From: a virus
Taxonomy: Duplodnaviria > Heunggongvirae > Uroviricota > Caudoviricetes
DNA: 16,792 nt
Direction: 5' to 3' (one strand)
IMG/VR virus record: IMGVR_UViG_2859810971_000005
The notes under the pieces are model-generated. The model was not told the origin of the DNA and ran no database searches. It was given only the letters and a program-made list of their open reading frames with translations. A program made the position numbers and the translations under genes. Positions 13,631 to 13,997 of the stretch are shown piece after piece; position 1 is the first letter of the stretch; each line of letters opens with the position of its first letter.

Positions 13631-13795
13631 TCAGTACATCAAGCCCGTTGATTTATATTCTCTCGTGGAAAGTAAGAAAAAAGCCGCTCTAATAAGTTCT
13701 GGCATTGACGAAAGCGCATCAGCCGCATCATCAGGAACGCCGGAAAATTCCTGTTTCAGGGAATTAAAACGATCATCACGCATAACCCCCCCCAT
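13631..13795 (-). CDS. hypothetical protein, probably the C-terminal part of a gene split at a G9 tract
   Basis: This frame begins inside the homopolymer GGGGGGGGG (plus-strand C9 at 13786-13794) that ends the upstream ORF; a +/-1 change in tract length fuses the two into one ORF of about 125 aa. Confidence 0.4.
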   Translation of the reverse strand: MGGVMRDDRFNSLKQEFSGVPDDAADALSSMPELIRAAFFLLSTREYKSTGLMY

Positions 13796-13997
13796 TTTCA
13801 CAATCGGCAACAAGAATATTTTTAGCGTCATTCAGTGACCGCGTTGCGATGTATCGGATACATTCCAGGGCGAACTGTGTCCGGTCTTTCTGTTCTTCTC
13901 CCTGCGCAAGCTCTGCCGTGCATTCAATATCAATAAGCGCGTGCATCAGCGTAGTGAGTGCGGCGGCTGCTGCGTTCGGTGTGGTTTTATTGTGCAT
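13776..13997 (-). CDS. hypothetical protein, first gene of the early operon (N-terminal part of the G9-split gene)
   Basis: ATG at 13995-13997 with AGGGGGA about 6 nt upstream (MHNKTTPNAAAAALTTLMHALIDIECTAELAQGEE...). The track's GTG start at 14039 would translate the ribosome-binding site itself. Confidence 0.5.
   Translation of the reverse strand: MHNKTTPNAAAAALTTLMHALIDIECTAELAQGEEQKDRTQFALECIRYIATRSLNDAKNILVADCENGGGYA

What the first reader, a model, noticed from the sequence alone, without database searches (positions are those of the whole stretch)
13776..13800. G9 homopolymer sits exactly at the junction of two overlapping early-operon ORFs
The ORF starting at 13997 ends …CENGGGYA* with its last codons running through GGGGGGGGG (plus-strand C9 at 13786-13794). 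The next ORF starts inside the same tract in another frame. A +/-1 change in tract length would give a single ORF of about 125 aa. This is either a homopolymer sequencing error, a decay mutation, or a slipped-strand on/off switch for the first early gene.
Basis: seen in the sequence. Interest (0 to 1): 0.45.

Follow-up and report, generated by a model that had tools for sequence, protein, structure and literature searches.

The report
Slippage-prone G-run joining two satellite genes
The run of G's (eight, not nine) sits where one small gene of a decayed phage-satellite island ends and the next begins; related islands carry 7 to 11 G's, which fuses or separates the two genes, and this window has the ordinary, ancestral two-gene form.

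Summary
The tract exists but is G8 (plus-strand C8, 13786-13793), not G9. It lies in the early operon of a capsid-forming PICI satellite between phoQ and its integrase. The window is 99.9% identical to Shigella flexneri SFBU1023, which has the same G8.

With G8, gene A (13997-13776) stops at a TGA that overlaps the ATG of gene B (13783) as ATGCGTGA. Distant relatives without a G-run have the same 8-nt overlap. There, A and B homologues pair with unrelated partners. A and B are therefore two independent, probably translationally coupled genes, and G8 is the ancestral state.

The tract is a strong slippage hot spot. IMG/VR loci carry G7 to G11, with the mode at G8. E. coli complete genomes with an exact copy number 383 (G7), 208 (G8), 188 (G9) and 28 (G10). 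Two islands identical over 7.9 kb differ only by G7 versus G10. G7 and G10 fuse A and B into a 144/145-aa protein. G9 only lengthens A's tail. Both halves stay intact in nearly all alleles.

Nothing supports an on/off switch, recoding or a sequencing error here. The real lesions lie elsewhere: a 1-nt deletion truncating B, IS1 in the next gene, a capsid nonsense codon and a TerL frameshift.

The parts
13786..13793 (-). G8 homopolymer (C8 on the plus strand). It encodes the Gly-Gly-Gly near the C-terminus of gene A and occupies the Shine-Dalgarno position of gene B.
   Evidence: Sequence read. Length is polymorphic (G7-G11) in relatives.
13776..13997 (-). Gene A: 73 aa, predicted helical, function unknown (phrog_5146; N-terminal half of phrog_2512). 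ATG at 13997, stop TGA at 13778-13776. Intact in the window.
   Evidence: Stand-alone homologues P0140, P0142, P0153.
13631..13783 (-). Gene B: ATG at 13783-13781, function unknown (phrog_24341). Here it is truncated to 50 aa instead of 73-77.
   Evidence: Stand-alone homologues P0139, P0145, P0149, P0155, P0158 all start at this Met.
13776..13783 (-). 8-nt stop/start overlap ATGCGTGA between gene A and gene B.
   Evidence: The same ATGnnTRA overlap is seen in L087, L088, L089 and L156-L167.
13644..13646 (-). Site of the 1-nt deletion in gene B (GGG here; GGGG or GGGA in relatives). It shifts the frame to a TGA at 13633-13631.
   Evidence: Alignment. The deletion is shared with S. flexneri SFBU1023 (L090) and IMG/VR L082.
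13987..14187 (-). Icd-like ORF (66 aa), immediately upstream in the same operon. Its last 11 nt overlap the start of gene A.
   Evidence: NCBIfam NF033153 at E=6e-18, PHROG hits, PGAP annotation of relatives.
12768..13535 (-). IS1 (768 bp) with a 9-bp target duplication ATTGTTTCG. It is inserted in codon 9 of the gene downstream of B (5' part 13561-13536, 3' part 12767-12551).
   Evidence: Absent from S. flexneri SFBU1023, where that gene is intact at 77 aa.

Best explanation
Two separate small genes (A, 73 aa; B, normally 73-77 aa) lie in the early Icd-like/primase operon of a capsid-forming PICI satellite. They are packed so that A's stop codon overlaps B's start codon (ATGCGTGA).

The G-run does two jobs. 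It encodes the Gly-Gly-Gly near A's C-terminus, and it lies where B's ribosome-binding site should be. Five G's pair with the anti-SD CCUCC, leaving about 5 nt of spacing.

Because it is an uninterrupted G8, it is a replication-slippage hot spot, and in the E. coli/Shigella population it drifts between G7 and G11. G8 is the ancestral two-gene state. G9 keeps two genes and gives A a tail 7 aa longer. G7 and G10 fuse A and B in frame through a GG(G)V linker. Every state leaves both halves readable, so the variants appear to be tolerated as near-neutral gene fusion/fission polymorphism.

The window carries the canonical G8 state and is not frameshifted at the tract.

Shown: tract length, gene boundaries, length polymorphism, hypervariability relative to flanks, two-gene architecture in tract-less relatives, independence of A and B. 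Inferred: SD function, translational coupling, near-neutrality, replication slippage as the mutational mechanism.
For: (1) Sequence. G8 is present, A ends at a TGA overlapping B's ATG, and ATGCGTGA spans 13783-13776.

(2) Distant homologues are stand-alone proteins that begin or end exactly at the tract. A-type: P0142 (...IQEVGHA*) and P0153. B-type: P0139, P0145, P0149, P0155 and P0158, all starting at the Met.

(3) Their DNA shows the same 8-nt overlap with ordinary SDs and no homopolymer: caggaggtggggcATGcaTAA in L087 and cggagggctggtcATGtaTGA in L089. Partners are swapped. An A homologue is followed by an unrelated B' in L087 and L088. An unrelated A' is followed by a B homologue in L089 and in eight IMG/VR loci (L156-L159, L161-L163, L167) whose B is 86-87% identical.

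(4) Tract lengths. The pattern-anchored set gives G7 23, G8 35, G9 21, G10 4, G11 2. Per haplotype the counts are 16/30/17/4/2, unimodal around G8, with 29% fused, which does not differ from 1/3 (p=0.52). The protein-anchored set gives G7 23, G8 23, G9 14, G10 4, G11 1. Five of its seven interrupted tracts are 8 nt long, i.e. in the two-gene frame. E. coli complete genomes with an exact copy: G7 383, G8 208, G9 188, G10 28.

(5) Hypervariability. 6 of 11 groups with identical 429-nt flanks differ in tract length. The chance that two loci differ in tract length reaches its saturation level (~0.7) as soon as the flanks differ by 1-2 substitutions. Eight pairs of fused proteins are identical except for GG versus GGG. 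L172 (G10) and L177 (G7) have 0 mismatches over 7,914 nt apart from the tract.

(6) Both halves are intact in nearly all alleles whatever the tract length. dN/dS is about 0.3-0.45 in both halves for fused and unfused alleles alike, against more than 1 in wrong-frame controls.

(7) The same G8 occurs in the independent S. flexneri SFBU1023 genome.

(8) The AlphaFold model of the fused form has its lowest confidence at residues 72-88, at the junction. That fits two modules joined by a flexible link, though the model is weak overall.
Against: Fused alleles are very common: about half of the exact-match E. coli complete genomes, although clonal oversampling such as O157:H7 inflates G7. The fusion might therefore be functional or even preferred in some lineages.

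G7 and G10, both in frame, occur on an otherwise identical 7.9-kb background, which could hint at selection for the fused frame there.

The tract is uninterrupted in about 90% of loci. The roughly 50-100 nt around it are invariant even at synonymous sites. Neutral drift does not explain that.

The functions of A and B are unknown. There are no expression or protein data. The SD role of the G-run and the translational coupling are inferred from position only. The dN/dS estimates come from ungapped comparisons and cannot separate evolutionary time spent fused from time spent unfused.
Confidence: 0.66

Rival explanations
1. Selected contingency locus. The poly-G tract is kept because its slippage stochastically switches the satellite between states: A and B separate, A with a longer tail, or A-B fused. 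These states would differ in how the island interacts with helper phage or host, a phase-variation-like bet-hedging device.
For: Tract length varies among otherwise identical islands. The tract is uninterrupted in about 90% of loci although synonymous Gly codons could break it. All length classes are common in nature. Both halves stay intact.
Against: No tract length switches either gene off. The length distribution is unimodal around G8 with no excess of any frame, as expected for neutral slippage. Lack of interruptions is not specific to the tract, because the flanking 50-100 nt are equally invariant. Assemblies of the same clone show identical match lengths, which is consistent with the same tract length (the Ec-042 evolution series and the AR dog/cat isolates), so switching is not rapid on laboratory time scales. 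From general knowledge, E. coli and Shigella have active mismatch repair.
Confidence: 0.14
2. Frameshift-inactivated single gene. The real gene is the 144/145-aa fused ORF, and G8/G9 alleles, including this window, are pseudogenes or OFF phases.
For: PGAP labels the G9 alleles of AF39 and MS 21-1 as frameshifted. Many fused 144/145-aa proteins exist, and a full-length PHROG family exists (phrog_2512). The window's island is decaying elsewhere.
Against: Tract-less relatives have two genes with the same boundaries and the same 8-nt overlap, and A and B occur with different partners. G8 is the modal haplotype. B stays intact in most unfused alleles. dN/dS, pooled over all alleles and so not specific to time spent unfused, is below 1 in both halves. 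PGAP annotates a G9 allele as two CDS in MS6198. Interrupted, stabilised tracts are mostly in the two-gene frame.
Confidence: 0.1
3. Recoding. Ribosomal frameshifting on the G-run (-1 on G9, +1 on G8) or RNA-polymerase slippage makes some fused A-B protein from unfused alleles.
For: From the sequence, a -1 slip on G9 would give exactly the G10 product (..NGGGVMRDD) and a +1 slip on G8 the G7 product. G GGG GGG formally fits the X XXY YYZ slippery pattern.
Against: Tract length and frame relation are not conserved, and distant homologues have no slippery site. No significant downstream structure was found (z = -1.34). In E. coli transcriptome data, all insertions in homopolymers were in A or T runs, and G/C runs were judged not slippage-prone (PMC5574713).
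Confidence: 0.04
4. Sequencing or assembly error. The tract length in the window, or the polymorphism in databases, is a homopolymer artefact.
For: Homopolymers of 8-10 are error-prone on some platforms. The window also differs from its closest E. coli relative at other runs (A7/A8, T8/T7, G3/G4).
Against: An independent S. flexneri complete genome has the same G8 with no gaps over 3.26 kb. G8 gives the conserved canonical overlap. G7 and G10 alleles are each seen on hundreds of contigs from many projects, in what appear to be short-read surveillance assemblies. A 3-nt difference (G7 versus G10) is not a typical error.
Confidence: 0.04

Closest known systems
Simple-sequence-repeat contingency loci with poly-G tracts (for example Campylobacter jejuni and Neisseria phase-variable genes; rmpA poly-G in hypervirulent Klebsiella, bioRxiv 10.1101/2025.09.12.675794, abstract seen)
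   Same: An uninterrupted G-run of 7 or more inside coding sequence. Its length differs among near-identical strains, and each change alters the reading-frame relation of what follows. Replication slippage is the presumed mechanism.
   Different: Here no length switches a gene off. The outcomes are two genes, two genes with a longer tail on A, or a fusion. The two-gene state is ancestral, not the OFF state. No within-culture heterogeneity or switching rate is known. The length distribution shows no frame preference.
Translationally coupled, overlapping genes in phage and satellite operons (stop/start overlaps such as ATGA or ATGnnTGA, with the SD inside the upstream gene)
   Same: A's stop overlaps B's start by 8 nt. 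A purine-rich or G-rich SD lies in A's last codons. The arrangement is conserved in distant relatives. The Icd-like gene and A overlap in the same way.
   Different: The SD region is a pure homopolymer, so the junction is mutationally unstable and often turns into an in-frame fusion.
Programmed frameshift gene pairs (phage lambda G/GT tail chaperones, dnaX, IS3-family orfAB)
   Same: Two overlapping frames joined at a slip-prone run, with a fused product possible.
   Different: There is no conserved slippery heptamer, no conserved frame offset and no supported stimulatory structure. Fusion is achieved at the DNA level by length alleles.
Capsid-forming PICI satellites (cfPICI, e.g. EcCIEDL933; SatelliteFinder, PMC10085698)
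   Same: The window encodes integrase, AlpA, D5-type primase, capsid, prohead protease, portal, head-tail connector, head completion protein, HNH, TerS and TerL, with no tail or lysis genes.
   Different: This copy is defective: capsid nonsense codon, TerL frameshift, an IS1 insertion and a truncated gene B. Genes A and B are accessory, mosaic early genes and not core markers; the closest E. coli island (L004) lacks them.

Membership tests
SSR phase-variable (contingency) locus | Uninterrupted homopolymer of about 7 or more within or next to a coding region | tested here: met
   G8 at 13786-13793; G7-G11 in relatives.
SSR phase-variable (contingency) locus | Tract length differs among otherwise near-identical strains | tested here: met
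   6 of 11 identical-flank groups vary. L172 and L177 differ only by G10 versus G7 over 7.9 kb. Eight protein pairs differ only in Gly count.
SSR phase-variable (contingency) locus | Length change turns expression of a gene product on or off | tested here: not met
   All lengths leave A and B readable. G8 and G9 give two ORFs, G7 and G10 give a fusion. Tract-less relatives have two genes.
SSR phase-variable (contingency) locus | High-frequency, reversible switching within a clonal population | not testable with these tools
   This needs read-level or fluctuation data. The only hint is that assemblies of one clone give identical match lengths, consistent with the same tract length.
Translationally coupled overlapping gene pair | Stop codon of the upstream gene overlaps or abuts the start codon of the downstream gene, with an SD inside the upstream gene | tested here: met
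   ATGCGTGA at 13783-13776, with the G-run 2 nt upstream of the ATG.
Translationally coupled overlapping gene pair | The arrangement is conserved in homologues | tested here: met
   The same 8-nt overlap is present in L087, L088, L089 and L156-L167. Stand-alone A and B proteins are found in the representative library.
Translationally coupled overlapping gene pair | Translation of the downstream gene depends on translation of the upstream gene | not testable with these tools
   Requires reporter fusions or ribosome profiling.
Programmed -1/+1 ribosomal frameshift site | Conserved slippery sequence in a fixed frame relation across homologues | tested here: not met
   Tract length varies from 7 to 11, and distant homologues lack the run.
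Programmed -1/+1 ribosomal frameshift site | Stimulatory downstream RNA structure | tested here: inconclusive
   The fold of 13830-13690 is not better than shuffles (z = -1.34). Flanks are invariant, so no covariation test is possible.
Transcriptional slippage site | Run of about 9 or more A or T | tested here: not met
   The run is G. PMC5574713 reports no slippage insertions in G/C runs in E. coli.
cfPICI satellite (context of the finding) | Core set present (int, regulator, primase-replicase, capsid, protease, portal, head-tail adaptor/connector, HNH, TerS, TerL) with no tail or holin genes | tested here: met
   Pfam and PHROG hits; definition from PMC10085698. The capsid and TerL genes are disrupted in this copy.

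The most novel reading that the evidence does not exclude
The poly-G run, together with the unusually invariant 50-100 nt around it, is a selected mutable element of E. coli/Shigella phage satellites. It would stochastically toggle two early genes between separate and fused products, or change A's C-terminus, giving heritable but reversible variation in how the island responds to helper phages. That would be SSR-type phase variation in an enterobacterial satellite acting by gene fusion/fission rather than on/off.
Probability: 0.12. Interest if true: 0.55.

Novelty: new member of a known kind. Interest (0 to 1): 0.27.

Why it matters
For this window the result is mainly a correction. The tract is G8, the two ORFs are two real genes in their ancestral overlapping arrangement, and nothing is broken at the tract. 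The true lesions of this Shigella cfPICI lie elsewhere.

More generally, this junction is a clear natural case of a homopolymer repeatedly fusing and separating two neighbouring genes in E. coli and Shigella. About half of the complete E. coli genomes that carry the locus hold a fused allele.

It also causes inconsistent annotation. PGAP calls identical G9 architectures 'frameshifted pseudogene' in some genomes and two CDS in others. PHROGs holds separate families for the fusion and for each half.

If the length variants turned out to differ in function, this would be a rare SSR-type switch in an enterobacterial phage satellite.

Tried and rejected
- Function of A and B. No Pfam, NCBIfam or PADLOC match, and only PHROG families of unknown function. 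No PDB sequence relative. The AlphaFold model of the fused form was too weak for a fold search (pLDDT 61, pTM 0.43), so none was run.
- RNA element at the junction. No Rfam family hit at gathering score in the window, and only one chance-level hit in 13500-14700. No significant fold. No repeat elsewhere in 13536-15600 matches or complements the junction.
- Antisense ORF 13665-13838 (+). It shares its wobble positions with gene B and would be frameshifted by tract variation, so it does not explain the synonymous conservation and was rejected (my reasoning from the coordinates).
- Promoter and terminator scan of 13536-15000. It did not locate the operon promoter.
- Megablast with tract-specific words. 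Rejected beforehand because the low-complexity filter would mask the run. Short blastn queries of each tract length, counted at 99% identity or more, were used instead. Those counts are per genome and are affected by clonal oversampling.
- Nearest E. coli island at the same phoQ site (L004). It lacks the A/B module, so it was no use for the tract, but it served to find the TerL and capsid lesions.
- The species-representative genome scan returned only one locus, S. flexneri SFBU1023.

Full report
**1. What is in the sequence**

On the minus strand the region reads ...GAT TGT GAA AAT GGG GGG GGT TAT GCG TGA TGA TCG.... The run is eight G's (plus-strand C8 at 13786-13793), and position 13794 is not part of it.

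Gene A starts at ATG 13997 and stops at TGA 13778-13776, giving 73 aa. Gene B's homology-supported start is ATG 13783-13781, so stop and start overlap as ATGCGTGA. A second in-frame ATG (13795-13793) is formed by 'AT' plus the first G of the run.

A simple composition model expects about 0.46 G/C runs of 8 or more in this window. The run is therefore not remarkable on statistics alone, although it is the only G/C run longer than 6.

**2. Context**

The window is a capsid-forming PICI satellite lying between phoQ (1-1461) and its integrase (15563-16792). It encodes AlpA, an Icd-like protein, A, B, a small gene C, a DUF4222 protein, a D5-type primase, capsid, prohead protease, portal, head completion protein, head-tail connector, HNH, TerS and TerL. 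No tail or lysis genes are present (family definition from PMC10085698).

The window is 99.9% identical to Shigella flexneri SFBU1023 (L090) over the parts held for that genome. A is the second gene of the early operon, after the Icd-like ORF (14187-13987), whose end overlaps A's ATG by 11 nt.

This copy of the island is defective:
- The capsid gene has TGG changed to TGA at 7967-7969.
- TerL is frameshifted at about 3253.
- IS1 (12768-13535, 9-bp duplication ATTGTTTCG) splits gene C. IS1 is absent from SFBU1023, where C is intact.
- Gene B carries a 1-nt deletion at 13644-13646 that truncates it to 50 aa. The deletion is shared with SFBU1023 and an IMG/VR island (L082), so it is inherited and not an error.

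**3. Are A and B one gene or two?**

A search with the conceptual fusion finds many E. coli proteins of 144/145 aa, or 150/151 aa in a subfamily with a longer A. They read ...CENGGVMRDDRF... (G7) or ...CENGGGVMRDDRF... (G10). These fusions are probably why PGAP calls the G9 alleles of strains AF39 and MS 21-1 'frameshifted', while it annotates the G9 allele of MS6198 as two CDS.

The exhaustive representative search points the other way. The family is small (40 representatives). Its more distant members (37-56% identity) are stand-alone proteins that end or begin exactly at the tract. A-type examples are P0142 (...IQEVGHA*) and P0153. B-type examples are P0139, P0145, P0149, P0155 and P0158, which all start at the Met.

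Their DNA shows the same 8-nt stop/start overlap with ordinary Shine-Dalgarno sequences and no homopolymer (caggaggtggggcATGcaTAA in L087; cggagggctggtcATGtaTGA in L089). The partners are also swapped:
- An A homologue is followed by an unrelated gene in L087 and L088.
- An unrelated gene is followed by a B homologue in L089.
- In eight IMG/VR loci (L156-L159, L161-L163, L167) B is 86-87% identical to the E. coli form and the junction reads cagGGGGGTAAACATGCGTGA.

The last two residues of A (YA, and HA, DA or HV in relatives) are simply what the overlap nATGnnTGA encodes. A and B are therefore independent genes. The G8 frame is the ancestral arrangement, and the fusions are derived.

**4. Behaviour of the tract**

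| Data set | G7 | G8 | G9 | G10 | G11 | Source |
|---|---|---|---|---|---|---|
| Pattern-anchored loci (82 IMG/VR, the window and two E. coli loci) | 23 | 35 | 21 | 4 | 2 | |
| Same set, distinct haplotypes | 16 | 30 | 17 | 4 | 2 | |
| Protein-anchored IMG/VR loci | 23 | 23 | 14 | 4 | 1 | |
| E. coli complete genomes with an exact copy (737 carry the junction) | 383 | 208 | 188 | 28 | not counted | |

- The haplotype distribution is unimodal around G8. Fused alleles make up 29%, not different from one third (p=0.52).
- The protein-anchored set also contains seven interrupted tracts, five of them 8 nt long and so in the two-gene frame.
- The complete-genome counts are inflated for G7 by heavily sampled clones.

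The tract changes far faster than its surroundings:
- 6 of 11 groups with identical 429-nt flanks differ in length.
- The chance that two loci differ in tract length is already at its saturation value once the flanks differ by 1-2 substitutions.
- Eight pairs of fused proteins differ only in Gly count.
- Two islands at the same chromosomal site are identical over 7,914 nt apart from G10 versus G7.

Both halves are intact in nearly all alleles whatever the length. dN/dS is about 0.3-0.45 in both halves for fused and unfused alleles, against more than 1 in wrong-frame controls. This is a rough, ungapped estimate.

**5. Mechanism**

Most likely (about 0.66), the G-run is the Gly-coding end of A and at the same time sits where B's ribosome-binding site should be. 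Replication slippage moves it among G7-G11.
- G8 gives the canonical coupled pair.
- G9 adds seven residues (LCVMIVLIP) to A.
- G7 and G10 fuse A and B through a short Gly linker.

None of these destroys a reading frame, and the variants look tolerated. The SD role, the coupling, the neutrality and the slippage mechanism are inferences.

Rival explanations:
- A selected contingency switch (0.14) is not excluded. It gains some support from the lack of interruptions, but there is no frame preference and no OFF state.
- A frameshift-inactivated single gene (0.10) is contradicted by the tract-less two-gene relatives and by G8 being the mode.
- Recoding (0.04) lacks a conserved slippery site or a supported structure, and G/C runs are not prone to RNA-polymerase slippage in E. 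coli (PMC5574713).
- A sequencing error in the window (0.04) is contradicted by the identical G8 in SFBU1023.

**6. An unexplained feature**

In the protein-anchored set, third-codon-position diversity is almost nil. Fifteen of the sixteen codons from A's last six through B's first ten show none (one is 0.11). It stays low to about codon 26, against 0.4-0.6 elsewhere. A wider profile shows the junction and A's 5' end as the most conserved blocks in the -520..+800 interval.

No Rfam family, significant fold or complementary repeat accounts for this. It may be a recombination joint for module exchange or a translation-initiation constraint. Because the whole block is invariant, the uninterrupted state of the tract cannot be taken as evidence of selection for mutability.

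**7. Comparison and verdict**

The element works like a simple-sequence-repeat hot spot placed on a translationally coupled gene junction. It meets the structural and polymorphism criteria of a contingency locus. It fails the on/off criterion, and the switching rate could not be tested.

It is a new example of a known kind of thing, and the window itself shows the ordinary state. Interest is low to moderate. The main practical value is correct annotation: two genes, not a pseudogene. It also documents a recurrent natural gene fusion/fission polymorphism in E. coli and Shigella satellites.

Noticed in passing
window 12768-13535 (target duplications 12759-12767 and 13536-13544): A complete IS1 (768 bp) with 9-bp target duplication ATTGTTTCG interrupts the small gene downstream of B (5' part 13561-13536, 3' part 12767-12551). 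It is absent from the otherwise 99.9% identical S. flexneri SFBU1023, where that gene is intact at 77 aa.
   Followed up: yes
window 7967-7969 (minus strand), capsid gene 7637-8842: The major capsid gene carries an in-frame nonsense codon (TGA where relatives L004 and L082 have TGG), which splits it into 291-aa and 109-aa ORFs.
   Followed up: yes
window ~3253, TerL 2553-4213 (minus strand): The large terminase gene is frameshifted by loss of one base in a short run (GGG versus GGGG in L004), giving overlapping 371-aa and 238-aa ORFs.
   Followed up: partly
window 13644-13646 (minus strand): A 1-nt deletion in gene B truncates it to 50 aa. The same allele is present in S. flexneri SFBU1023 (L090) and IMG/VR locus L082, so it is inherited.
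   Followed up: yes
window 13700-13815 and related loci L091-L170: Synonymous (third-position) diversity is almost nil: 15 of the 16 codons from the last 6 of A through the first 10 of B show none. It stays low to about codon 26 of B among 53 haplotypes, against 0.4-0.6 elsewhere. The junction block is conserved at the nucleotide level for no identified reason.
   Followed up: partly
window 14141-14155 and 14787-14801; hairpin 14152-14132 (minus strand): There is a 15-nt perfect inverted repeat (GCCGTTTGTGTGTGT / ACACACACAAACGGC) 631 nt apart. One arm forms a terminator-like hairpin in the 5' part of the Icd-like ORF. This may be a c4/CI-type antisense immunity arrangement; no Rfam family matched.
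   Followed up: no
L001 3265-3701, L002 3263-3711, L003 3253-3689: PGAP annotates the same G9 architecture as one 'frameshifted' pseudogene in two genomes and as two separate CDS in a third. PHROGs holds separate families for the fusion (phrog_2512) and for each half (phrog_5146, phrog_24341).
   Followed up: yes
window ~9073; 8795-8801; 10412-10418; 1701-1708: Relative to the closest E. coli island (L004), the window has a 9-nt tandem duplication (GCTGTATGT) and one-base length differences in A7/A8 and T8/T7 runs. I did not check which features they fall in.
   Followed up: no
proteins P0003, P0004, P0020, P0026 (217-221 aa): Some assemblies encode still longer products in which an upstream ORF (...NEKNAEGY) runs straight into A and B. 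The upstream junction may therefore also be subject to fusion, or to gene-calling artefacts.
   Followed up: no
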